From Octopus vulgaris (taxonomy: Eukaryota), in the NCBI GenBank assembly GCA_951406725.2, contig OX597815.1, positions 53,196,001 to 53,260,000 on the forward strand: a stretch of DNA of 64,000 nucleotides, written 5' to 3'. Shown piece by piece: positions 3,030 to 61,035 of this stretch; the stretch's first letter is position 1, and every line of letters starts with the position of its first letter. Under the pieces are notes generated by a model. The model was given only the letters and a program-made list of their open reading frames with translations, was not told where the DNA came from and did no database searches. Made by a program: the position numbers and the translations under genes.

Positions 3030-3135
3030 CTGATTGGTTGTGTTGGATGCTGAGTGTGAATATGTTGACCAAGCATCACTTGTGCTTGATCCTGCAGGTT
3101 TTCTACTTGGTGGGGATCCTTTAAACCTCGGGTAT
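3030..3135 (-). CDS. NR2E3: NR2E3/PNR internal exon, LBD ([36 protein letters not shown])
   Basis: Hand translation; not in the ORF track. Acceptor ttttctgttttcaaag|, donor |gtaagt, 106 nt, phase 1 in and phase 2 out. Matches human NR2E3 [25 protein letters not shown]...PSQPVR as recalled. Confidence 0.95.
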
Positions 3136-3504
3136 CTTTGAAAACAGAAAAGAAGAGCACAATGATAAACTATTTAAAGATAACTTAATACAAAATAACA
3201 ATTTATAACTTTGACATAAAGATGTCCCTTTAAAGTAGGGGTGCACTGATTTAGTCGGTCCCACTAACAGACTGGTATTTCTTTTATGTTTTCCAAGAGA
3301 AAAAATAAAACAGGTTGAGTGTTAAACTCGGACAGTAAATAGGCGTAGCAGAATAGTCAAGTATTCTACCAATTCTAAAGTCCATTGAATTTTCTCAAAT
3401 ATTAGATGCATATTAGACAAAAATTATCTACAGAAATGGCTACAACGTTAGTTTAATTTGGAGGATAAGACATAATCCTAACATTTGAGAAACATAAATG
3501 ATAT

Positions 3505-4085
3505 TCTTCTCTACTCTGGGAATAAAGCCCGAAATTTTTGGGAAGGGGGTTAGTCGATTAGATCGACCTCAGTACGCAATTGGTGCTTAATTTATCGATC
3601 CCGAAAGGATGAAAGGCAAAGTCCAAAGTCAACCTCGGCGGAATTTGGACTCAGAACGTAAAGACAGACGAAATACCTATTTCTTTACTACCCACAAGGG
3701 GCTAAACACAGAGGGGACAAACAAGGACTGACAAACGGATTAAGTCGATTTCATCGACCCCAGTGCTTAACTTAACTTAATTTATCGACCCCGAAAGAAT
3801 GAAAGGCAATTATATAAATATACAACTAAACAATACGTATAAATATGCGGAAAATATTTGAAAATATTCTTTTCTACTCAAGGCACAAGGCCCGAAATTT
3901 GGGGGGAGGGAGGAGGGGCCAGACGATTAGACCGACCAGTACGCAACTTGTGCTAATTTATCGACCCCGAAAGAATGAAAGGTTAAGTCGACCTCGGCGG
4001 AATTTGAACTCAGAACGTAACGGCAGACGAAATACGGCTACGCATTTCGCCTGGCGTGCTAACGTTTCTGCCAGCTCGCCGCATT
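3505..4085 (-). mobile_element. Compound tRNA-derived SINE cluster
   Basis: Repeated core tttatcgaccccgaaaggatgaaaggcaaagtcgacctcggcggaatttgaactc. Reverse B-box (gagttcaaattcc) and A-box (gctggcagaa); same family recurs at 30293, 56538, 58895, 63335. Confidence 0.85.
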
Positions 4086-15924: not shown

Positions 15925-17527
15925 TATATATATATATGTATATATATATACGCATATATATACATATATATGAATATATGTGTGTGTGTGTATATATGTA
16001 TGCATGTATTTACGCATATATGATTATATCTGTCCATGCAATTACGTGTGTATGTCTCTTTATATGGCGCTCTATCTATTTACCTCTCATATACTCATTC
16101 ATTCCTGACTATCAGCCAATCCTCGTCTATTTCCTCACGACTCATACTCTTTTCGCTCTTCACGTTACTACAGATTATAAAACGCACACATACACACGTA
16201 CGTACACACGCGCGCGCGCACACACTCTCTCTCTTTCTCTCTCTCTCTCTCCCGCTCTCTCTTCCCACAAATATATACACGCCTTCATATACACACTGAC
16301 ATACAAGACAGACACAAATATTTATGCACATAGCGAATTTTAAACATATAGCCATTGAGACGCATTCATATACATTCACAACTACACACGTACACTCATA
16401 AACATAGAAAATCAATAAAATAGTAGTTTGAACGGAAATTGTCTCGTTTAATTTCTTCTCATCCTCCTCTCTCTCCTTTCTCTCGTCTCTGCTCTCTCCT
16501 ATATCATTTACTCATTTTATATATCTTTGATTGTTTCTCTTTGTTTCTTTCTTACTTATCGCTTTATTTTTGTAATTAATATTCATCTGACTTTCCATGT
16601 GTGTGTGTGTGTGTGTGTGCGTGTGTTCCTTCTTTTCATTCTTACTCTTTCTCTATGACCCCGTCCTCTCCTTTACACACATACAACCGGTAGTTTCAAC
16701 ACACCTCCATCTATATTTAATTATCTCCCCTTAGTTAACTCATATTCTCTTTCTTCCACAATCTCATTTATTCTATTAGTTTACAGCACAATGATTCAGG
16801 AAACTACAAGACATACTAGAGATTATTTGACAGATTCCGAAAACTGCACCGCCACACCGCACACATGAGCTCGTCTCTAATTTAAAGGAGCAATGGAATT
16901 TGGCGGAAAAATTTAGGAATTTGGCATGATGCATTTTGGTGTGTCTCAATGTCTCTCAGGATTGGTTGGTATTCTCAACACTCCGCCCAGTTTAACATTA
17001 TCAGCTGTTCTTTAGGAGCCTTAAAGTGACAGTTACGACGATAAACTTCTCACTTTAATCTAGAATTTAGGAGCTTCTGACTTTCAGCAGTAGTCTTAAA
17101 ACACCGCCCAGTTTAACACCGCCACTTAAGTTTGGATACCTTTGTTTGTGTGTGATAGGCCTTAACACACCTCAGTTTAACACAACCACCCGGCTTTTGG
17201 GTGCCGTTAAGACATTTCAATTTTGTGAAAATTCAAACAGCCTCTTGTTCCTACCTCACTCAGCGTTTATTATATTTCCTTACAGACATAAACTGTAAGT
17301 TGGAAACAGAAGCATCAACATGGTTCTACTACTGATAATAAATTAATAATTCATTCTTAAAGAATTTAAATCTACAATATAACAGTCACCGTTTCATCAT
17401 CAGTCAGTACGAAAGACAGAGAGGGAGAGGTAGAGAAAGAGAGATGGCGATGAAGAAAGAAATGGAAAGAGAAATGGTGAGAGACGGAGAGAGAAGGGGA
17501 GGAGAGAGAGGGAAAGAGAGTGAGTGG

Positions 17528-18383: not shown

Positions 18384-18416
<33 letters not shown>

Positions 18417-18424
<8 letters not shown>

Positions 18425-18739
18425 TATTGGTGAATTGAAGAAATGGAGCTGAACGAAGATTGCACAGAAATCGTTTTATTTCATTCTACACGTGTTTCGA
18501 AAGGCACAATTTACCAAAATCCGATTGAATAATGAGACCATATTGTGTCTTTCTCTTCAGGAAGAAATAGGAAATCCGTTGGAAAAAACAAAAACAGAAC
18601 AGAGGCGGAGCAAAACAAATCGAACTAGGCTCCTAATTTTGGTAAATTGTGCCTTTCGAAACACGTGTAGAATGAAATAAAACGATTTCTGTGCAATCTT
18701 CGTTCAGCTCCATTTCTTCAATTCACCAATAATATTTTA
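18417..18739. repeat. Perfect 104-bp inverted repeat with 115-bp spacer (part of an element running to ~18889, between TA tracts)
   Basis: 18417-18520 is the exact reverse complement of 18636-18739 by visual comparison. Confidence 0.95.
18477..18569 (-). ncRNA. Type I hammerhead ribozyme, intact core
   Basis: uauuuc-uuc-CUGAAGA-gaaagacacaau...auugugccuuuc-GAAAC-acgu-GUA-gaa-u-gaaaua. Stem II 11/12 bp, stem I 3+6 bp, palindromic stem III loop. Confidence 0.8.
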
Positions 18740-19213
18740 ATTTCAATTATCCGCACCAACGCACGGTTGCAACACCATATGGTTGTACCTCCAACCGTGC
18801 TGTCTTCTGCTGTGATTTTTGCTACCAAGGTATCGGTTAAACTTTTGATTAATCTGCTACAAGATTATTCATCTTTCTATTTCACATAATATATATATAT
18901 ATATATATATATAACAAACTACAAAGTCAGTGATCAACACTGCAGTAGTGGATGACTTTTTTTTTAATAGTTCAGTGGTTTTAATCCAATACCAATGGTT
19001 TTATGTGAAAAGATTTACACTTATTCAATCGCAGGCAGAATAATTGCAAATATAATCGCTTCAAACCATTGCTGTCGTATTAACATTACTCAACTATCTT
19101 ACTGTGTGCCTCTCTGTATATGTATATATTCAGTATATTCAAATAGTTATATTAATATATGCATGCACAAACGCACACACTGACACACGTACACACACAC
19201 ACAAACAAACAAA

Positions 19214-20824: not shown

Positions 20825-21871
20825 GTCTCCATCGACTAACAAATGGTAGTCTGAAGGAGCAAGGTTAGGAGAGTAAGGTGGATGAGGAATTTTTTTCCAA
20901 CCAAGCTCTTCGATTTTCTGAGATATGATCTTTGCAGTGTGGGGTCGCGCATTGCCCTATTGAAACATCACTCCCTTTCGATTCATTAAAGCGGGTCTTT
21001 TTTTTTTCAAAGCTTGGTTCAAACGCTCTAATTGCTGACAGCAGACTTGAACATTGATTGTTGCATTAGCTGGTAACAATTCAAAGTGAATTACTCCTTT
21101 GCAATCCCACCAGATAGAGAGAACCGTTTCCCCATAAAGTTCCCTTCTCAGTTGTGGTTGAGCTTATTTTCTTTTTATCAAGCCACTGTTTACGACGTTT
21201 AAACATTTCGATAGAAGATCCATTTTCCGTCACCAGTCACAAGTCTATCCAAAATGGGTGAAACGAGTTCGCGAAAATGGAGTGAAGAGCAGATGTCAAC
21301 TCGGGATTTGCGGTTGCTTTCGGACAATTCATGAAGCACCCATTTTCCAAGTTTAGGAACCTTTCCAAGTTGTTGAAGATGACGATGAACAGTTGTATGT
21401 TTTGAACTAAGCTTTATTGCCAATTCTTCAACTGATAATGCTGGATTTTCTTCAATTAGTGCCTCAAGGAGCTTATCATCAAACTCAACTGGACGACCTG
21501 TTAGATCCATATCTTCAAGGCTGAAATCTCCACTTCTGAATTTTGCAAGCCATCTTCTGCAAGTTCTTTCATTCAAGCATTCTTTCCCATAAACTGAGTG
21601 TGTTTCGAGTCGCTTCGGCTGCAGAGTTTCTTTTTTTGTACTCATAAAGCATTATGTGCTTTAAATGCTCTTTGGATACTTCCATGTTAGAAAGGGTTTT
21701 AATCAAAGAAAGTTTAATTCTATTATTCTGTAAAATAATATTTACTTAAGCTAAATGTGCTCAAATGCGTAAAAATAATTTTTAATTCCATTAGACATTC
21801 TAAAATACTATTAAATTTCATTCAATTTTAAAAAAGGCAAAATCGGACAGAACTTATGGAATGACCTGATA
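20825..21871 (-). mobile_element. Decayed mariner transposon, 3'-truncated
   Basis: ORF 21199..21645 has RFRSGDFSLED...GRP-like HTH, WVLHEL (WVPHEL) and LVTGDGKWIFY. Downstream HPPYSPNLAPSDYHL near 20845-20890; one TIR (tatcaggtcattccataagttctgtccg) at the right end. Confidence 0.9.
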
Positions 21872-22469: not shown

Positions 22470-23155
22470 ATATATACTTAAATGATAAACTTCTGGAAAG
22501 TTTTACAGATTTCTTATAGTTCCAGTGATGGCTTTGATGTGTAGTCACCGATTCAGCTTTCTCCTTTCTGGATTGGTACTTAGGCAGTGTTACATATCCC
22601 AGCACTCCAATAATTACAGTTATAAATCTGAACTTGTAATCTGGCAAGAGTCACTATATATTTCTCAATAGTTCAGCATAGGAATTTTCTTTTTCGTTGA
22701 ACTTGAACTTTATGTTAACATCAACTGAGCAGCTGGTTTTCGCAGCTGTACACTGTTTCTATTCTCTGTCCCAAATCATTGCGTTAGGTCTGGTATGTTT
22801 ACATTTTATTGAGGTTTTCACTGGGACCTTCCACCAGTATTCCTTCTTATTATGAGTGGCTACGGCTTCCAACATATTGTGGGTTTCTATTTCTTTGGCT
22901 TCAGGGTTATCTTTCAGGCGGATGTTATCATATAGGGTCCTAGCTACAACCTCATATCTCATCGATAGATAATATCGTGATGACATTCTTACACAACTGC
23001 TTATGATGTGGGTGATAACTTCGGTGTTAACTCCACATCGGTTGTCACATTTTATAACTGCATCGGTTGTCACATTTTACTGCTTTTCCTGCGTCACTTT
23101 TCTTGTCGCGCATCAGGTATTTGGTTGGTATTTCCTGTTCCTGGATAGCAAGCTC
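22470..23155 (-). mobile_element. 3' fragment of an RLE-type (R4/Dong-like) non-LTR retrotransposon
   Basis: ORF 22759..23073 has C..C....E.ITHIISSC zinc knuckle, MRYEVVA (RHD-like) and HTRPNAMIWD (RPD-like nuclease motif), all degenerate. Confidence 0.7.
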
Positions 23156-30292: not shown

Positions 30293-30510
30293 TGCGGTGA
30301 GCTGGCAGAAACGTTAGCACACCGGGCGAAATGCTTAGCGGTATTTCGTCTGCCGTTACGTTCTGAGTTCAAATTCCGCCGAGGTCGACTTAACCTTTCA
30401 TTCTTTCGGGGTCGATAAATTAGCACAATTTGCGTACTGGTCGTACTAATCGTCTGGCCCCTCCTCCCTCCCCCCAAATTTCGGGCCTTGTGCCTTGAGT
30501 AGAAAAGAAT
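30293..30510 (+). mobile_element. tRNA-derived SINE
   Basis: gcggtgagctggcagaaacgttagc A-box head and gagttcaaattcc B-box. Confidence 0.9.
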
Positions 30511-30569
30511 ATTTTCAAATATTTTCCGCATATTTATACGTATTGTTTAGTTGTATATTTATATAATTG

Positions 30570-38237: not shown

Positions 38238-38587
38238 CCTCACTTAAACGTGGATGCTCTGTAAGAACAAACTATACTGCGGTAGTTACCCCAAGAGAAA
38301 CTCTCATATTGGCTTTTTGTGCAAACTGCACTCTTCATTTATATCACTAGTGGGGAGATAAATGTCCACCATCTCCAGCACCAAGACCACCAAATCACGT
38401 GATTTTGACCTTCTTTGGTCTTGTCAGTGATGAATGCTCGACCGCTATAGATAGCAGCGATTCCTCTCCCGCCCGCTAGTGATATAAGCAAATGTACATT
38501 TGCACCATAAGCCAATATGAGAGTTTCTCACATGGTATAAATACTGCACTATAGATTGTTGTAACTGAACATCCATGTTTAAGTAGG
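38238..38587. mobile_element. ~350-bp rod-like fold-back element with a hammerhead relic at its apex
   Basis: Nested arms acttaaacgtggatg/catccatgtttaagt, gagaaactctcatattggctt/aagccaatatgagagtttctc, ttatatcactag/ctagtgatataa. Confidence 0.85.
38388..38432 (-). ncRNA. Type I hammerhead relic (G8A, G12A)
   Basis: cauca-CUGACAA-GACC-aaagaa-GGUC-AAAA-ucacguga-UU-uggug. Confidence 0.7.
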
Positions 38588-40817: not shown

Positions 40818-42361
40818 ACACACACACACACACACTGACAGATAGATAGAAAAAATAAATAGATAGATAAATAAATAGATAGATAATAGGTAGAGATTAA
40901 AGGTATAAACAACTGGTATAAGGTCTTTGTAACATTTATATATTTGAACATGAGGGTAGAATTATTACAGGAGTATAGATCACAAGAGTTTGATAAATGA
41001 TCAGCTGGGGAATGTTCATAAGGGTTAAGATATATGCTACAGTCATACAGTAAGTTCGAATTCTTGCTACTAGGTAAAGATCGTCATCGTAGACAGAATC
41101 CAAAGATGGATGAGAAGAAAGGAGGAAGGAAGAACGTGTGCGAATAGTCTCTTACAGCTGTTTCAAGAACAGATGCGCAGGTGGTACATTCCCTGCAAAC
41201 GATTGGCAGCCAATGTTTAAGCTGCGATCTATTCCATCGGACGATGGAATAGATCGCAACTATTTGCATAATGCACATTATAGCATCAATCAGACACTGA
41301 ACCTTTCCAACGGCTGCCATGATTTTATGAAGGTCTAACATTTTCCTTCTCAGTCATATTTATGCAACATCTTGATTTGATATTCTATATAACAACTTAT
41401 TCATCTATTATCTTTTTGTTTCATATATAAATGGTTATTGATATATATATATATATATATATAAATTGAGAGAGAGAGAGGGGATAAGAGAATGAGAGAG
41501 AGTGAGGGGAAGAAAGAGAGAGGGCAGACTGTGCATGTGCGTGTATGTATTTTTTACGGGCTTTACTGCACAATACCCGAGGAAAATAATGACAGCAATG
41601 TGTATTGAATAATGGAAACATAAGTGTTGCATTGTTTCACTTTGTGAAAATTTGAAATGCTGTTGCTTCAATTGTTTAAGGATGAAAATGTAATTAGAAA
41701 TATATTTATACACTAATATATACGTAACTGGTTATTATATATATTGAAAACATTCAAAAGCGTTTCGAAACAACGGTAAAAAAGAAAAGAGAATATGTTT
41801 CTATGAAATCTGCAATGTTACTTTAATTTTGTAATTTAATTTTGTAAAGATGAGAATGTCAGTTTATATGCATCATACATTTGTATATTTACATTTGTGT
41901 ACTCGTTCCTTAGCTGAATTGAAAGCATCGTGGAAAAGTGAAAGAGTACAGTACTAACACTACTTTCACATTTCACTGCTTTCAATATAAAAGAAATGAA
42001 ACAGTATGATTGAGAAACAAAGTTAGTAATTTAGGGGAACTGGTAATTCAATTGAAAGTCGCCTCTAGTACGTGATTGGTACTTTATTGTATCAACCCTG
42101 AAAGTCCGACAAGTAGATTTGACTCCGTGGGATTTGAACACAGAAGGCAAAGAAATTGTTATAATAATAATTTCTAAAATAGGCACTAGGCCTACCATGT
42201 TCATCAATATACATACATACACACGGACGCGCGCGCGCAGACATACATATACACAGACATATCATGTGTGTTTCTGTGTACATATATGTTGGTATGTGTA
42301 TATGTGTGCGTGTGTGAGGAGTATGTATATCTATATATATATATAAACATACATACATACA

Positions 42362-42957
42362 CACGAGCAAGGGACAGCAATCAATGCTCACTAGCTAACT
42401 GTCCAATCCGTGACACAGATTTATGCCAACGAGTAAATGTTGTGTATAGAATACAATGTAGCAAATGCAACAAGTTCTACATGGGTAGCACAATAAGACC
42501 GTTACATATTCGCATCAGAGAACTTCTGAACACGAGAACTTTCTCCTTCAGAAAACATCTAGACAGATGCCGGAACACCCGACAAAAACATTACAGTCAC
42601 AATTGAGGCCAATGAAAGAAATTTGGGTAGTCTAAGAATTAATGAAGTTATCCTCGTAGACAGACAAGGGCTCCAAATTAACAACAGGCTGGAGGTTGGC
42701 AATCAATATATTATTTAGCTACACACTTCTCATAAGGAATTCCGCAAGGAGCTTCGTGAGACCACTGCAGAGACGCTTCCGGAAAAAAATTCCAGTAACC
42801 GTTGGAAAACCGATTAAAGCAGTGACTCGATAAATTCCTAGCGATATCTGAAGAAGGAATTTTTATAGTCCGAAATATATTATATCTGACTATGGATAAT
42901 TAAATTACAGCAGTTATTATAGTCCGCTCTGCATTGTTGTACCATTCAAGACACGTT
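42362..42957 (+). mobile_element. Penelope-like element 3' fragment: GIY-YIG endonuclease plus pLTR
   Basis: NVVYRIQCSKCNKFYMGSTIRPLHIRIREL...SFRKHL; a frameshifted tail LRINEVILV...QINNRLE follows, then a hammerhead-bearing non-coding end. Confidence 0.88.
42843..42886 (+). ncRNA. Minimal type I hammerhead ribozyme in the Penelope pLTR
   Basis: gauau-CUGAAGA-a-gga...ucc-GAAA-uaua-UU-auauc; palindromic aauauauu stem III. Confidence 0.75.
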
Positions 42958-43171: not shown

Positions 43172-43833
43172 CGCTGTCCAATGACTGAAACAAAAGAAGA
43201 AATAGCTATAACTCTTTGACTGCTATAACTCTTTGACTGAAGAAATAGCTATAATTCTTTGACTGCTATTTCTAAATTCGGTATGTGGTAAGGCAATTCG
43301 TTGCTAAACCCTTTATTGCTTAGTATTACTTAAATTTTCCTCGAATGAGGCTTTTACATGCCGAAGACTACTTGGTGTAATTGATAATTATTCCAAATTA
43401 ATTAATTTCACCCTTCATTATATATATATATATATATATATATAACGGTTTCATTCAGTTCACATTACTTGCATCATTTATAGTGGAATGTTCTGTAAAA
43501 AATAACTGAAACAAATGTCTTGGCCAATGGCAGTTAACATTACCCATTCAGTTAATACGTCTTAATTGCAAGTTTAATACTGAATGCATTAGATTTTAGT
43601 GGCTTACGGAAGATGTTAATAAATAATGAAATTAAGACAATGACTTTTGAACGATCTGATTTCGAGTGCAATAAATAAATATTTTTACCGCTCATTATAA
43701 CCACACCCATAAAGATAAGATTATGTTGTGAAGTTACATTTGAATATATATATATATAAAGAACTGTGAATTAAAAGAAATTATACGAAAATCAAATTCT
43801 AATGTGTAGGTATTGTAACATTTGTTATTTTAC

Positions 43834-44071
43834 CTGGCTTAAAGAGAACAATTGCTTTGAGACAAGCAAATTCGGCTGGATCTACCTGGATCGCTTTGAA
43901 ACGTGCAAGAATTTCCTGTAAGATTCGAACGTCCGCAATTGTCGACGTTTTACCATTGACTATCTGTGAAGGATCAGAGACTACAAACAATGGGGACGTT
44001 TCTAAAGGTAAAGACCATTGAATGGCGCAGAGTAGAAACAGTTCTGTCCATGCCTCTTCCAAAAGTATAAC
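43834..44071 (-). CDS. NR2E3: NR2E3/PNR internal exon, LBD (VILLEEAWTELFLLCAIQWSLPL...VDPAEFACLKAIVLFKP)
   Basis: Inside ORF 43799..44233. tgcag| acceptor, |gtaaaa donor, 238 nt, phase 0 in and phase 1 out. NR2E LBD signature. Confidence 0.96.
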
Positions 44072-44311
44072 CTGCAACGAGAAACATAAAGGTTGGTTAT
44101 ATCTAATCCTTGCAAATAAACAATAAAAAACAACAACAAAATAGCAATAACTGAAAAAGGCATTTCGAACGTTGGTAGAAGGGCAGGAGTTCCTACAAAA
44201 TTGACTATAACGACTTGATTTAAACGTCTTCACATTACGACTGACTAAACACTATTAAGCTTCATATAGAAACAATTTATAGTTAAATAAATGTTTTAGT
44301 AATGAAATAAT

Positions 44312-47787: not shown

Positions 47788-48413
47788 AAGAAAGAGAGGG
47801 TAAAAATGTGGGTTGGAGAGAGAAAGTGGGAGTTGGAAAGAGAAAGTGAAAGTTAGAGAGAGAAAAACACGGCGAGTGAGCGTGACTTGATTTACTTATT
47901 ATTTACACAGTTCTAAACGTCTTCAGGCAAGACGTAGAATAAGTCACGAAGCAGAAGAAAACTCATCATAGCGAAATACAAAGTTTATGCGCAAACTGTA
48001 CAACACCAGCAACAGTGATACGTTAGTAATAACAGCAACTGCAAGATGCAGTAGTAGCAATAATAGTTGTCATGTCGAAGGCGAATATTTAATACATTGT
48101 TTTTGTTGCTGTTGTTATAGTCTCTCGACGTAAAATCGTCAATACCAACAAATTTCACGCTTGTTGATTTAACAACTATTCAGTATCTGACATAATGTTT
48201 CAGCCGTTGCAGAATCTTCCATTATACACATTGCTGCTGTTGGTGTTTAGTGGGTTGAACTATTTGGGGAGGGCGTGGTAGTATTTGTGATGGTGGTGGT
48301 GATAAATGTAAGAGTGACTATGTTGTGCTAGGTTTGGTAGTGGTCGTAGTTATGGTAGGAATGGAATTGGTGGTGGAAGTTTTACTGGTAGCAGACACGA
48401 TACTGGTATCTCT

Positions 48414-48498
<85 letters not shown>

Positions 48499-48562
48499 AA
48501 TCTATGTATGTATGTATGTATGTATGTATCTATCTATCTATCTATCAATCTATCTATCTATC

Positions 48563-50494
48563 AAGACGCTAATCAATTTGGATCAATCGAAAGCTTTCGA
48601 TAGGGTAGACCATCGATACTTGGAGGCTGTCCTCAGAGCGGCTGGTTTCGGTCCCGCCTTTCGCGGCTGGATAGCCGCTTTGTACGGAGGCATCTGTTCG
48701 GTAATTCGCGTAAATGAACATCTATCGAAACCTTTCGACATTGCACGTTCTTTCCGTCAGGGATGCCCCCTCTCGTCGCTTCTCTACGTATTGACTCTCG
48801 AGCCATTATTGTGGAAGCTGAGGGGCATCCCGCGAGAATTGGGATGCGGGACGAGCGTGTCTGCATACGCGGACGACGTCACCGTCATAATGTCTAGCCA
48901 CGAGCACATCAAGCAGGTCAGCGAGGCACTGAAAGACTACGAAGCAGTGACAGGGGCGAAAATCAACCGGGAAAATTCAGTGGGCTTGCGACTCGGCACC
49001 TGGAGAAGCAAGCCCATGCCGTCCACCAGCGCTTCCGTCGTGGGACGCTGGACCGACGGTCCGGTTGAGTTGCTCGGGGTCTGGTTTGGTTCGGGCCTCC
49101 AAATGGAGAAGAACTGGAACGAGATAACGTATAGGGTGGTCACTCTCGCAGGCAATGGGCCGAGAGGAAACTGTCCTTAAAAGGTCGGGCGGAGGTGGCG
49201 AACTCGTACATCGCGTCCGTCATCTACTACTGCCTGACCGTCGTGCCTTGTCCCGACCCTACCATCACCAAACTAGAACGCATTCTCTTTCGCTTCTTGT
49301 GGAAAGGATGGGTCCCGATGGTCAGGCGATCCATTTGCTGTCAACACCCGTTAAAAGGAGGACTGGGCATGCCCTGGTTGATGATGCGCAGACACGCGCT
49401 GAGACTGCGACATCTCAGGCTCTACTTAGACGACGGTAAACAGGTGTAGTCGCCGTTTGTGAGGCACGCTTTCCCGCAACTCGTCTCCATGACCGAACTG
49501 CAGTCGTGGATCAAAAAGAGGCCGAGAAAGGGCGAATGTCACAGCGAGTGTCGCGTTGCTCTCAAGCAACTATGCCGTCCCGGGTCGACCTTGAGTGACT
49601 TCAACACAACCCAAGCCTGTTCAAGACGACTTTCGAGCCAGGGCCCATGGACAACTTCCAGAGATCCCTGGCCTGGCAGTGCTACCGAGAAGCGCTACCC
49701 GTTCGGGATAAGCTCTACAGACACGTCCGACCAACCCGAGATGCGGTCAGAGCGACGAAACCGTTCTGAACGCACTCGTGCAGTGTCCAACAATTTCCGA
49801 TCTGTGGGCCTATGTCGAACAACTGCTGTCACGTGTGGGACGAGTTGGTTTATCAGCCGAGTCTATCGTCAATATTGTCACGCCTCCTTCCTTCAAACAG
49901 GAAGGAAGAGCTATTTTCATCATCCTTGTGGCTATGGCGAAAGAATGTATCTGGTGGACGCGTCTCAAAGGATTGGAAACAAACACTTTCTTCTCTGGTC
50001 AATCTCTCATCAACTTCTTCAAGTATCACTTGAAAAGGAAAGTGAGAGTAGAGAGGCAAGTTTTGTCTAGCGAATGTTTTAAAAAAAGATGGGTGAATGT
50101 AGCAAGGATGGCACGTATGAATGACGAAGCCACCTTGAGCATAATCCTATGAACCCGGAAATTTAAAACAGAGGGTTTGCAAACAAATGTGGTAACATGT
50201 AACAATATTGACCGAGGTTACCGTGGTCTTTTCCGTAGGCTTTTCTTCCCACAGATAAACCTTATCTGCTTCCCCCTTTACACCTTACATCATGACACTG
50301 TGATACACGATCCCTATTGATCGTTTTTTTCTTTTGTTTCTTTTCCTTTTTCTCTTCTTCTCTCCTTTCCCTTTTACGATCCCTTCTGATCGAAAACCTA
50401 CCCCACCTTTTTTTTTTCTTTCCCCAAAAAAGAAAAGCTCTACTTTGTAATCTGCCCCGTCTAAGTGCAGCCCTGTGTGGCTAATAAAGAAACA
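48563..50494 (+). mobile_element. 5'-truncated L1/Tx1-clade LINE (RT plus zf-RVT), frameshifted
   Basis: LINLDQSKAFDRVDHRYL, RQGCPLS, SAYADDV, KGGLGMP, ETVLNALVQCP; ends aataaagaaac; flanked on both sides by (TATC)n. Confidence 0.92.
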
Positions 50495-52014: not shown

Positions 52015-52915
52015 GTAGGAGGTTTATTCTAGATTTCTTGCAAGAATTTGTCCAAATGCTTCTTGCACTTCATGGGGTCTGTTCCTGCTTTGATGCGTTT
52101 TCGTGTAATGTTAGGGCGGGGCTAATTGAGGTGAAATAATTGTGTCGTATTGTTGTTACGAGATGCGAGTGGGATTTATGTTGTGGTCGGGTAGCACGGG
52201 ACCCAAGCCTTGGGTGTATCTTAAACGTGGCTGATGGAATATCTTCCATATGCAGATGATGTAATGCTCACGGCGACTAGGAGAGAATAAAGCTTGGGCT
52301 TTCTAGACGACCCCAATAATCAAGGCCTGTCATGCCAACTATCTTTTTTGTAATTGATCTTTGAGGTGCTCCAACTTTCATGATACTTTGTTTCGTGTGG
52401 GGAGACCACAATGGACAACAATATTCAAGGTGCGTTCGGGCGAAAGTGGAGAAGAGAAGAATAATGGTGTGGATATCTCTCGACTGGTAAATTCTGAGAA
52501 TCCAGGAACATATTCTGCGGGTCATATCAACTTTGCTGTTTATATAAGCCGCCCAGCTAATGTTATTGTCCACAATTACTCCCAAATCTCTGATGTTATT
52601 GGATGTTATAGGAGTTTCACCTCAAGGAAGGGAGTATGGGAGTTTCAGAGTGTCCTCTTTTCCGAAGTGGATTAATTCAAATTTGTCCTCGTTCAGCAGC
52701 GTATTGTTCTCTTCCGCCCATTGGGTGACAGCCAGTAGGTCTGACTGAAGGCATGTCCGGTCACCCGCTTCATTGATGACCTTCTGGAGTTTGGAATCAC
52801 CTGTAAAAATTATGTTGCAGTGCTTGATGATGTCAGTAATGTCGTTAATGTAGATGATGAAAAGAAGTGGGCCCAACACAGTGCCTTGTGGAACACCATT
52901 ACTGACTTTGGCTGG
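52015..52915 (-). mobile_element. CR1/L2-group LINE RT fragment, decayed
   Basis: GVPQGTVLGPLLFIIYINDI, FTGDSKL (FADD-derived), ARTHLEYCCPLWSPH. Confidence 0.88.
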
Positions 52916-53191
52916 CCTTCATATATATATATATATATACATATAAGTCGAAACAATTTGTTAGCCTATTACGTTTTTTTTAAATACTTGTCTATGCTAT
53001 ATAATATTATGATGTATTATATTCATAGTGTATCATATAATATTATATTATAGATAAATTATTGGATTGTCAATAGTATCTCTCAATTTAATTTATCTTT
53101 GTAATTGCATTATACCAGTATTCAACTGACGTGCCAGTGAATTGGATGTTTAACACACCCTTTGAAGGATTTCTTTTCCTCAGTTTGTTAC

Positions 53192-54440: not shown

Positions 54441-55693
54441 GAGGCTGAGTAAAAAGTAAGCAACGTTTTAAAATATATTTCAACAATGCGGTGGTGCCAG
54501 CGGTGGCACCATCTATGGTGCCCCAGCGTGGCCGCGGCCTTCGGGCTAAAACATTTTAAAGGATTTTAAGGATTTAATGCGGAAATTTTTATTCATCAAA
54601 GTAAGCACCATTACAATCAAAACATTTTTACCAGCGAGTTACAAGTTTGTTTATTCTGGTAACATAAAAATCTGGTGTTCTGGAGCTGATGAACTCTTTG
54701 AACATACTTTCAGCATAGATTTGACTTTAGAACTCCTTCTCTCGCAGGAAACCATCAAATTGCTTGAAAAAAAAGGGGTAGTCTGCTGAAGAACTTCGTA
54801 ACCGTGTTCCCTCAACTTCTGGCGCGTCATTAGTGAAACGTATAGTCGGGCATTGTCATGAAGAACGATTGGCTCTCATCTGTTGGCCAGTCTGGGACGA
54901 AGGAGTAGCAGTTTATCGTTCATTTTTCAATTTCATGGTAATATGTCTCCGGATAATAGTTTTTCCGTGTGCTAAGAAGTTATAGTAGATGAGTCTAGCA
55001 GTACACCACCAAACAGTCACCATAACCTTTTTTTTTAACGAGCTCGGGTTTAGGGAAGGTTTTCGGGGCCTCATTTTGGTCAAACCACTGCGAAGAACGT
55101 TTTTTTATTATTGTACAGAATCCACTTTTCATCGCAAGTTTCAAAACAGTCAAGAAATGGATCGGCCCCGTTACGGAAAAGAAGCGACGAGTAAATTTCA
55201 TATCTGCGCATTTTCTGATTTTTATTCAAATAATGTAGTACTCATTTGTCGAGCATTTTTGATTTTCTGATCGCATGCGAATGGTTGCAGGCTAACTTGA
55301 AGTTCGTTTACTAGTAGTCGAGTGGTTTTACGTTGATTTTTCTCAGTGACGGTCTTTAATTGACCGTCATCGATGACAGATGGGCATCCACTACGCTCAC
55401 GATGTTTAAGGCTCAGATCTCCACTGCAAATTCGTCTAAACCATTTTCTTTCTTTCTTTTTTTAAGTTGAATAGCAAAATTGCTCGAATATCGCACTTTG
55501 ACACTTCCATTTCAGATGATTGTGTCAACGGTGAAAACAAATATCAATGTTAATTTACTGATGAACCTGGGCAGGTCTATGTCTGTATAAGCAGACAATT
55601 TCACAAATTTTTTTTAAAATATTCAAAACTGCAAACATCCGGTACAAATCCTTTATCGTTCAAAACGTTGCTTACTTTTTACTTAATCTGATA
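54441..55693 (-). mobile_element. Decayed full-length mariner (~1.25 kb)
   Basis: 22-bp perfect TIR core agtaaaaagtaagcaacgtttt at 54448-54469 and 55662-55683; transposase relics WFDQNEAPKTFPKPEL, MVTVWW, LLHDNAR. Confidence 0.85.
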
Positions 55694-59699: not shown

Positions 59700-61035
59700 T
59701 TAATTCAATTTCAATTCAATTCAGTTTTATTGGCTCAAAAAGCAAAAGCAAGGCCATGTAGGGGGATAGGGTGTTATGTACAAGGAGTGTGGTCATACAA
59801 AGAGTTCAGGCTATTTCTGGTCAAGAGAGACTTTGAACCGACCTGTCGTCGGCATCTTCACTATCTCGGCAGCTTAATCCACGGATCCGCAACCCGGACG
59901 GAGAAAGCCCCTTTCCTTCGATTGAGATGAAATCGTCGTAGATAGAGCTTTTCGGAGTGACCACGCAGCCTACGCTCTGGAGCAGGAGTGAAGAACATCT
60001 ATTTCGAGAGGTTACACTTTCCACTTATGATGTTGTGATCGAGAATGAGATCACCACGGCGTCGTCGTTTTTCGAGAGAATAAAGGTCGAGCGTCTTCAG
60101 CCTTTTTTCATAAGACAAATGCTTGAGACCAAGAACCATGCGGGTAGCCAGCTTCTGGACTCTTTCGAGATGATGTATGTCTTTGAGGAGATAAGGAGAA
60201 GAGGCTTGAATCCCGTACTCCAATATGGGTCTCACCAGCGTGGCATAGAGCGGTAGGAATATGGCTGCCGTGAGCATTCCGAATGACCGTCGAATCAAAA
60301 ACAGACCTCCGCGTGCTTTGTTGGCAGCATGGATGCACTGGGCCAAAGGCGAAAAGGAAGAATCCACCAAGATACCCAGGTCCTTTACTTGGTCGGTCTT
60401 CTCCAGCAGCAAACGACCCGGCTCGAAATCAAGTTGAGTTGCAGGAGAGGAGCCAACAGGCAGATGACAGCACTTTGACACGTTCAGACACAGGTCCCAT
60501 TCGTTTGACCATCTCCAAACTTGATCATCTATATTACTGCGAGGAGCGACCAGTTTGACGTCGTCGGCAAAGGGTGTGTTGCGTGAGGTCGTCGTGCAAG
60601 TCATTGATGAAGACTAAAAACAATAACGGCCCAAGTACTGAACCTTGAGGCACGCCACTGCTCGCACTAGAGACGTCGGACAGCGAGCCATTAACTTGGA
60701 CTTGGAAGGAGCGATCTGAGAGGAAGGCACCAACCCATCGTACAATATCCTGATGGAAACGATATGCTTGAAGCTTGACAAGTAATAGGTGGTGGTTAAC
60801 CGAGTCAAAAGCTTTGGCAAAGTCCAATAAAACGATGTCAACAGCATCACCATCATCCAGGATACGCGTCACCAATTCTTCCTTTACCAGTAAGTTGACA
60901 AGCATGATCTCTTCGGCACGAAGCCGTGTTGGGAATCAGAGATAGAGGCTGTGTCTTGGAGGTGGAGCAACATACTTTTCTTGAGGATGGTTTCGAACAT
61001 CTTGCTGATTATTGAAGTAAGGGAAACCGGTCGGT
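59700..61035 (-). mobile_element. 5'-truncated CR1-group LINE (RT to 3' tail)
   Basis: LDFAKAFDSVNH, SGVPQGSVLGPLLFLVFINDL, FADDVKL, LVRPILEY, LERVQKLATRMV; aataaa followed by a (gaatt)n tail. Confidence 0.92.

What the first reader, a model, noticed from the sequence alone, without database searches (positions are those of the whole stretch)
18417..18739. Intact-core sense-strand hammerhead locked inside a perfect 104-bp inverted repeat
Seen: on the NR2E3 sense strand the core CUGAAGA (18560-18554), GAAA (18498-18495) and GUA (18489-18487) are canonical with good stems. The 3' half of the ribozyme lies in the left arm, and its exact complement (right arm) is transcribed first. Inference: the 104-bp hairpin should sequester the ribozyme, giving two mutually exclusive folds and a strong ADAR substrate in a lineage known for heavy A-to-I editing. 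Identical arms imply a young insertion or ongoing conversion. Inverted partial pLTRs are a known Penelope insertion product.
Basis: partly seen in the sequence, partly recalled or inferred. Interest (0 to 1): 0.75.

Follow-up and report, generated by a model that had tools for sequence, protein, structure and literature searches.

The report
Head-to-head stump of a Penelope retroelement
The hammerhead motif and the perfect 104-base mirror repeat are real, but they are the young, cut-short end of an abundant Penelope-type jumping gene that mostly inserts as two head-to-head pieces, so the predicted locking of the ribozyme is likely a by-product and not a switch.

Summary
In detail: a type I hammerhead (2-bp stem III, dimer type) lies on the sense strand of an NR2E3-like intron, and a perfect 104-bp inverted repeat covers its 3' half. 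The true unit is larger, 18417 to about 18891, between two (TA)n tracts. It is two 5'-truncated end pieces of a Penelope-like element (Hydra-like RT/GIY-YIG protein; an open 895-aa frame lies elsewhere in the genome) joined head-to-head.

This is the family's usual product. Of 99 tail-anchored copies, 72 have an inverted partner ending about 160 nt short and none has a tailed partner. Of 78 two-armed copies with a complete hammerhead, 59 are 'locked' in the same way. Identical arms reflect youth: one difference from the intact-frame copy, also seen at four other loci.

Folding predicts a 67 kcal/mol gap and capture before the cut site is made, so no two-state switch. Editing and cleavage are untested. 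Likely mechanism: reverse transcription primed from both broken DNA ends at two fixed RNA sites. The layout is published, and the scan found it before on other DNA. New member of a known kind.

The parts
18389..18418 (.). left (TA)n target tract
18417..18636 (-). short-ended arm: 5'-truncated pLTR copy (reference copy L043 positions 3280-3499), no tail, carries the complete hammerhead
18477..18569 (-). type I hammerhead motif; core 18560-18554, GAAA 18498-18495, predicted cut after 18487; 2-bp stem III with palindromic loop (dimer type)
18417..18520 (.). left arm of the 104-bp inverted repeat (the overlap of the two truncated copies, reference 3396-3499)
18636..18636 (.). head-to-head junction with a 1-nt microhomology
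18636..18891 (+). tailed arm: 5'-truncated pLTR copy (reference 3396 to about 3655-3661); holds only the 3' half of the hammerhead
18636..18739 (.). right arm of the inverted repeat
18740..18891 (+). one-sided tail of about 150-165 nt, with an internal hairpin (18761-18769 / 18792-18800)
18890..18913 (.). right (TA)n target tract
43799..44251 (-). open frame containing the upstream exon of the host NR2E3-like gene (ligand-binding domain)
3050..3130 (-). downstream LBD exon of the host gene (approximate bounds)
   Evidence: read by eye

Best explanation
This is one young, doubly truncated insertion of an abundant Penelope-like retroelement into a (TA)n tract, likely made when both ends of the cut DNA primed reverse transcription at two fixed sites about 160 nt apart in the element's RNA and the two short cDNAs were joined head-to-head. 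The 104-bp repeat is simply the stretch copied twice. The hammerhead belongs to the element's pLTR. In the host pre-mRNA it is predicted to be trapped in the duplex and so to stay silent, as a geometric by-product. Shown: family membership, architecture, youth, and the strict pairing of one tailed with one untailed end. Inferred: dual priming, a shared RNA template, microhomology joining, silence of the ribozyme.
For: Both pieces map at 99.5% to a natural copy with an open 895-aa RT/GIY-YIG-like frame and direct pLTRs. There are 656 exact tailed ends and 509 untailed ends on TA genome-wide. Of 99 tail-anchored copies, 72 have an inverted partner ending at 3495/3499 and 0 have a tailed partner; of 58 anchored at the short end, 40 have a tailed partner and 1 an untailed one; 97 of 105 partner ends abut TA. 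Of 103 pairs, 80 form a repeat of 20 bp or more, 58 of 100 bp or more, 20 have no overlap at all, and 58 join with 0-5 nt overlap. In 25 of 83 pairs both arms stop within 15 nt of each other (permutation mean 4.8; 0 of 20,000 reach 25). The two arms agree at 499 of 504 subfamily-diagnostic sites, 334.5 expected. Arm ends pile up at 3251-3270 (31 of 108, 5.5 expected), at an Inr-like motif with a DPE-like motif at +28 (consensus recalled), which fits sense-strand templates for both arms. The layout and two internal RT starts are published.
Against: RT and endonuclease identity rests on motifs read by eye against a published alignment; Pfam gave 0 families and the PDB search no RT match. 17 of 99 tail-anchored copies have no inverted partner. 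[quoted passage not shown] Self-priming on an antisense template followed by endonuclease trimming is not excluded. 11 rare variants are shared by both arms against 50 private to one arm, so some conversion is possible. This junction is unconfirmed by independent sequence.
Confidence: 0.85

Rival explanations
1. A functional RNA switch in the NR2E3 intron: duplex versus active ribozyme, toggled for example by A-to-I editing, that tunes pre-mRNA cleavage.
For: The motif is intact and on the sense strand; the arms hold 39 and 32 adenosines in a perfect duplex.
Against: Predicted gap of 67 kcal/mol and capture before the cut site is transcribed; the monomer does not favour stem III. A single metazoan minimal PLE hammerhead showed no detectable cleavage in vitro. 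The insertion is too young to show selection, and 59 of 78 comparable copies share the geometry.
Confidence: 0.04
2. Same element, but the inversion arises by fold-back self-priming of one (antisense) template, trimmed afterwards at two fixed sites by the endonuclease.
For: Proposed for head-to-head Penelope palindromes (PMC3846280); tail ascribed to endonuclease resolution (PMC8557442); near-symmetric junctions and short palindromes at junctions are common here.
Against: 20 of 103 pairs share no sequence, so one arm cannot be a copy of the other without extra trimming. Both arm types stop at the putative sense transcription start. In vitro a sense RNA is extended from both strands.
Confidence: 0.15
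3. The inverted arm at this locus is an assembly artefact.
For: No listed contig of four runs bridges 18636.
Against: Dozens of loci have the same layout with different junctions and arm-specific mutations; the arms are offset, not a mirror at one point; a private young insertion would also be missing from other individuals.
Confidence: 0.03
4. A composite non-autonomous element (MITE or retrozyme) that moves as the whole 475-bp unit.
For: 25 places match the 323-bp query nearly end to end, the window included.
Against: Each of those has a different junction; only the window had this one among the 30 loci mapped from that search.
Confidence: 0.03

Closest known systems
Insertion units of endonuclease-positive Penelope-like elements (PMC8557442 Fig. 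2; PMC3846280 Fig. 2)
   Same: 5' truncation, adjacent inverted truncated copy, head-to-head junction, tail at one end only, hammerhead in the pLTR, partial tandems in long copies.
   Different: The tail is about 160 nt here against 30-40 nt in the passages read; strict one-tailed/one-untailed pairing is counted here.
Hydra clade of C-terminal EN+ PLEs, incl. Hydra-1_Obim of Octopus bimaculoides (PMC8557442)
   Same: DKT motif, no CCHH, CxxC beside E and CxH after N, (TA)n target, canonical hammerhead; RT motifs line up by eye with Hydra rows.
   Different: RWL instead of RWK; the CxCX5C linker is replaced by a long Ser/Asn-rich stretch with one Cys; about 3.7 kb against under 3 kb; a different hammerhead sequence from Hydra-1_Obim, so a different family.
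Metazoan PLE hammerheads with short, palindromic helix III (PMC4209133)
   Same: Type I, 2-bp stem III with palindromic loop, long helix II, predicted dimer fold; dual motifs on opposite strands 100-700 bp apart already noted.
   Different: Stem II loop is long (31 nt); activity of this motif is untested.
PAc Poseidon element in vitro (PMC11167929)
   Same: Internal RT initiation at two sites that bound the tail; both DNA strands cut and extended; hammerhead cleavage not required.
   Different: Here both ends are AT-rich and resemble the TA target, and the two sites are coupled to opposite DNA ends; PAc showed no strand difference.

Membership tests
EN+ Penelope-like element insertion | Family encodes a single ORF with RT and GIY-YIG endonuclease between direct pLTRs | tested here: met
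   L043: 895-aa frame between direct pLTR copies; motifs matched by eye to the published alignment; Pfam and PDB searches gave no RT or EN hit
EN+ Penelope-like element insertion | Inverted 5'-truncated copy adjacent, head-to-head | tested here: met
   window; 72 of 99 copies
EN+ Penelope-like element insertion | Tail at one end only | tested here: met
   72 vs 0 and 40 vs 1; length about 160 nt, longer than the 30-40 nt described
EN+ Penelope-like element insertion | Hammerhead motif in the pLTR | tested here: met
EN+ Penelope-like element insertion | Target-site duplication | tested here: inconclusive
   both ends lie in (TA)n
Hydra clade | DKT motif in place of DKG | tested here: met
   VQSDKTRN in P0001
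Hydra clade | No CCHH in EN; CxxC and CxH beside conserved E and N | tested here: met
   read by eye in P0001
Hydra clade | RWK motif | tested here: inconclusive
   RWL at the equivalent place
Hydra clade | CxCX5C linker before EN | tested here: not met
   one Cys in a Ser/Asn-rich stretch; hence called Hydra-like, not filed as Hydra
Hydra clade | Placement in the RT phylogeny | not tested
   no reference proteins were held as usable sequences
Hydra clade | Insertion into (TA)n | tested here: met
   97 of 105 partner ends
Type I hammerhead ribozyme | Core C3-A9, G12-A15.1, UH and helices I-III | tested here: met
   core positions conserved in 198-202 of 202 hits
Type I hammerhead ribozyme | Compensatory changes in stems | tested here: inconclusive
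   family too young; three common variants break single stem pairs without compensation (column counts)
Type I hammerhead ribozyme | Self-cleavage | not testable with these tools
   needs in vitro assay or end-mapping
Non-LTR retrozyme | Tandem units each with a complete hammerhead | tested here: not met
   one complete motif and one inverted half (definition)

The most novel reading that the evidence does not exclude
One element RNA is copied twice, by two RT protomers primed on opposite DNA ends at sites about 160 nt apart. The folded but uncut hammerhead acts as a drop-off zone for the RT. The family therefore mass-produces short inverted repeats that lock its own ribozyme, sparing host pre-mRNAs and seeding hundreds of perfect dsRNA (ADAR) substrates in the genome.
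Probability: 0.3. Interest if true: 0.5.

Novelty: new member of a known kind. Interest (0 to 1): 0.2.

Why it matters
As a single locus it matters little: a young insertion deep in a 40-kb intron. As a family it is a good natural data set for open questions on Penelope-like elements. How tandem and inverted structures form is named as unresolved in PMC8557442, and so is the role of the hammerhead. Hundreds of young junctions show strictly coupled ends, shared stop points and no sharp stop at the ribozyme's cut site, which makes the dual-priming model directly testable in vitro.

Tried and rejected
1. In vivo hammerhead cleavage as the cause of truncation: not supported. In the unbiased sample, 25 of 195 arms end in 3411-3430 (9.9 expected, P 2e-5, window chosen after the fact). 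Genome-wide pattern counts in five 13-nt windows were 32 (3396-3408), 82 (3413-3425), 110 (3426-3438), 34 (3439-3451) and 15 (3456-3468). Divided by filter pass rates of 0.35, 0.36, 0.46, 0.25 and 0.28 these are about 93, 225, 239, 137 and 54. This is a broad hump over the 3' half of the motif, as high upstream of the cut site as downstream. My by-eye tally of the 100 rows listed of 110 (3 dropped as indels) shows no spike at 3430 (4 rows; 11 at 3429, 14 at 3431, 14 at 3437); a script on the 30 fetched loci agrees. Indel false positives, TA-joined arms and local palindromes bias these counts. Near-symmetric junctions numbered 23 at the cut site against 8 and 21 in two control windows.

2. Covariation of the stems: uninformative (the stem I pair table in that script was off by one and was not used).

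3. Read support: all 24 runs offered were contigs. No empty-site joint was among the 15 joints shown of 25, and no listed contig bridged the junction; neither result proves anything. A-to-I editing could not be examined; one putative RNA run laid on 100 bases showed no differences from 4 contigs.

4. Rfam, Pfam and PDB gave no hit for the motif or the protein; the protein atlas gave no answer.

5. A DNA transposon with 220-bp terminal repeats was my first reading; rejected because the 'terminal repeats' vary in length and lead into an RT frame.

6. Gene conversion as the cause of identical arms: not needed.

Full report
Observation. The inverted repeat is real: arms 18417-18520 and 18636-18739, 100% complementary, 115 nt apart. 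The hammerhead boxes are at the stated places on the minus strand. Stem I has 9 bp with a bulge, stem II 11 bp with one mismatch, and stem III 2 bp with a palindromic loop. A descriptor finds this one site in the window, against 0.01 per resampled window in 100 trials. The host gene is on the minus strand: the exon at 43799-44251 matches NR2E3 best and the following LBD exon lies near 3130-3050, so the site is inside an intron of about 40 kb. The species is not given; earlier scan notes on this genome call it octopus, which I did not test.

What it is. A search of the own genome gave 109 matches from 40 scored of 1589 candidates. Their flanks show that the element continues past 18739 to the TA tract at 18890. 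Longer copies lead into a protein frame; L043 holds an open 895-aa frame between two direct pLTR copies. With that natural copy as reference, the window holds an antisense piece 3280-3499 joined by a 1-nt microhomology to a sense piece 3396-3661. The 104-bp repeat is their overlap. The protein has DKT, RT motifs that line up by eye with the Hydra rows of Craig et al., a C-terminal GIY-YIG-like region without CCHH, and CxxC/CxH motifs. The CxCX5C linker is missing, so I call it Hydra-like. Pfam and PDB searches did not recognise it.

How typical. Exact patterns count 656 tailed ends and 509 untailed ends on TA. I fetched 99 of the first 100 listed tailed ends (the window itself left out; one mis-fetched locus replaced) and 58 of the first 100 listed untailed ends (the first 30 and the 28 on contig 3). 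Of the 99, 72 have an inverted partner ending at 3495/3499, none a tailed partner, 17 no partner, 4 another end, and 6 run off the locus. Of the 58, 40 have a tailed partner, 1 an untailed one, 4 none, 2 another end, and 11 run off. After dropping 12 loci seen from both sides, 103 pairs remain: 80 form a repeat of 20 bp or more, 58 of 100 bp or more, and 20 do not overlap. Of 78 with a complete hammerhead, 59 have the repeat over the cut site. The locked ribozyme is thus the default.

Age. Both arms differ from L043 at one base, which four other loci share. In 73 insertions the two arms differ at 0.6% of sites against 2.7% between insertions; 41 have no difference. Private variants are mostly on one arm (50) and less often on both (11). 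Youth explains the identity.

Mechanism. Shown: two fixed outer ends, strictly paired, both on TA, and variable inner ends joined with 0-5 nt overlap in 58 of 103 cases. Inferred: a double-strand cut in (TA)n, each end priming at one of two AT-rich sites about 160 nt apart, then joining of the two truncated cDNAs. A shared template is suggested by 25 of 83 pairs stopping within 15 nt of each other (permutation mean 4.8) and by 499 of 504 concordant diagnostic sites (334.5 expected), though the latter needs only a shared source copy. Arm ends pile up at 3251-3270 (31 of 108, 5.5 expected), where an Inr-like motif has a DPE-like motif 28 nt downstream (consensus recalled). This is likely the transcript start and favours sense templates. 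The rival, self-priming on an antisense template with later trimming, is less likely but not excluded.

The ribozyme in the host RNA. On the minus strand the complementary arm comes first. Equilibrium folding of growing transcripts gives the duplex a probability above 0.99 once 18505 is reached, before the cut site at 18487 is made. Forcing the hammerhead in the full context costs 67 kcal/mol. Alone, the monomer forms stem III with P about 0.03, while the dimer forms the extended helix. A single minimal PLE hammerhead was inactive in vitro, and the PAc one needed protein. So I predict a silent motif, not a switch. The duplex is a plausible ADAR substrate (recalled knowledge), untested: all runs were contigs.

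Does the hammerhead cut the template? Arm ends are in excess over the 3' half of the motif, but genome-wide counts are about as high just upstream of the cut site as just downstream (82 and 110 raw, about 225 and 239 corrected; flanking windows about 93, 137 and 54). There is no spike at the cut base (by-eye tally of 100 of 110 rows; script on 30). This fits RT drop-off at a folded, uncut motif or joining at local palindromes, and agrees with uncleaved RNA being the main substrate in vitro.

Assembly. No listed contig in four runs bridges the junction, and none of the 15 joints shown of 25 marks an empty site. Both are inconclusive. An artefact is unlikely given dozens of loci with the same layout and different junctions.

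Literature seen. PMC8557442: passages, section 11, and supplement rows. PMC11167929: parts 1-2 of 4. PMC3846280: passages. PMC4209133: part 1 of 4 and passages. bioRxiv 10.64898/2026.07.22.740005: part 1 of 5; its supplements were not seen. Five searches listed no title that counts coupled ends or reports a tail of this length, but I read only the five papers named and subscription journals are not covered. Earlier scan notes report the same layout and coupling in other families; these are unchecked AI notes and not support.

Verdict. Real, ordinary for its family, and of a described kind. Interest 0.2. The worthwhile residue is the family-level signature of coupled two-site priming with an unusually long tail.

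Noticed in passing
L043 3806-6505 (G000:C5, near 7.067-7.071 Mb): Copy with an open 895-aa frame and both pLTRs, 99.5% identical to the window's pieces: the family is young and possibly still active. A long Ser/Asn-rich stretch lies between RT and endonuclease, like the N-rich inserts described in Adineta Penelopes.
   Followed up: partly
reference 3257-3295 (just beyond window 18636 in longer copies): Pile-up of arm ends at an Inr-like motif with a DPE-like motif at +28: candidate internal promoter of the pLTR.
   Followed up: partly
L043 upstream pLTR tail and leader; window 18829-18842: A 12-14-nt stretch of the tail is complementary to the leader just before the start codon, so the tailed end lies inside a predicted stem-loop; the same stretch begins with a splice-donor-like AG|GTAT.
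   Followed up: partly
L031 (G000:C4:98565498-98570672): 5-kb insertion with arms overlapping by about 1.6 kb: a very long near-perfect inverted repeat of the same family.
   Followed up: no
window 3807-3930 and 30446-30569: Two copies of another repeat, identical over 124 bp, in opposite orientation 26.5 kb apart in the same intron: a possible long-range duplex.
   Followed up: no
window 38295-38315 and 38509-38529: 21-bp perfect inverted ends around a 235-bp unit: MITE-like.
   Followed up: no
window 42190-42606 (+): Fragment resembling a GIY-YIG endonuclease with CxxC (VYRIQCSKC..YMG) from another Penelope-like family; label recalled, not searched.
   Followed up: no
window 21199-21651 (-), 54550-55461: Mariner-like transposase remnants; label recalled, not searched.
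   Followed up: no
window 48392-50152 (+), 52277-52918 (-), 59999-60935 (-), 22759-23076 (-): Broken LINE-type reverse transcriptase fragments in the host gene's introns; labels recalled, not searched.
   Followed up: no
window 16969-17189: Short direct repeats (26-29 nt, spacing 121 and 64).
   Followed up: no
G000:C29:29148279, 29233602, 30260038: Three places with the same head-to-head junction, probably segmental duplicates of one insertion.
   Followed up: no
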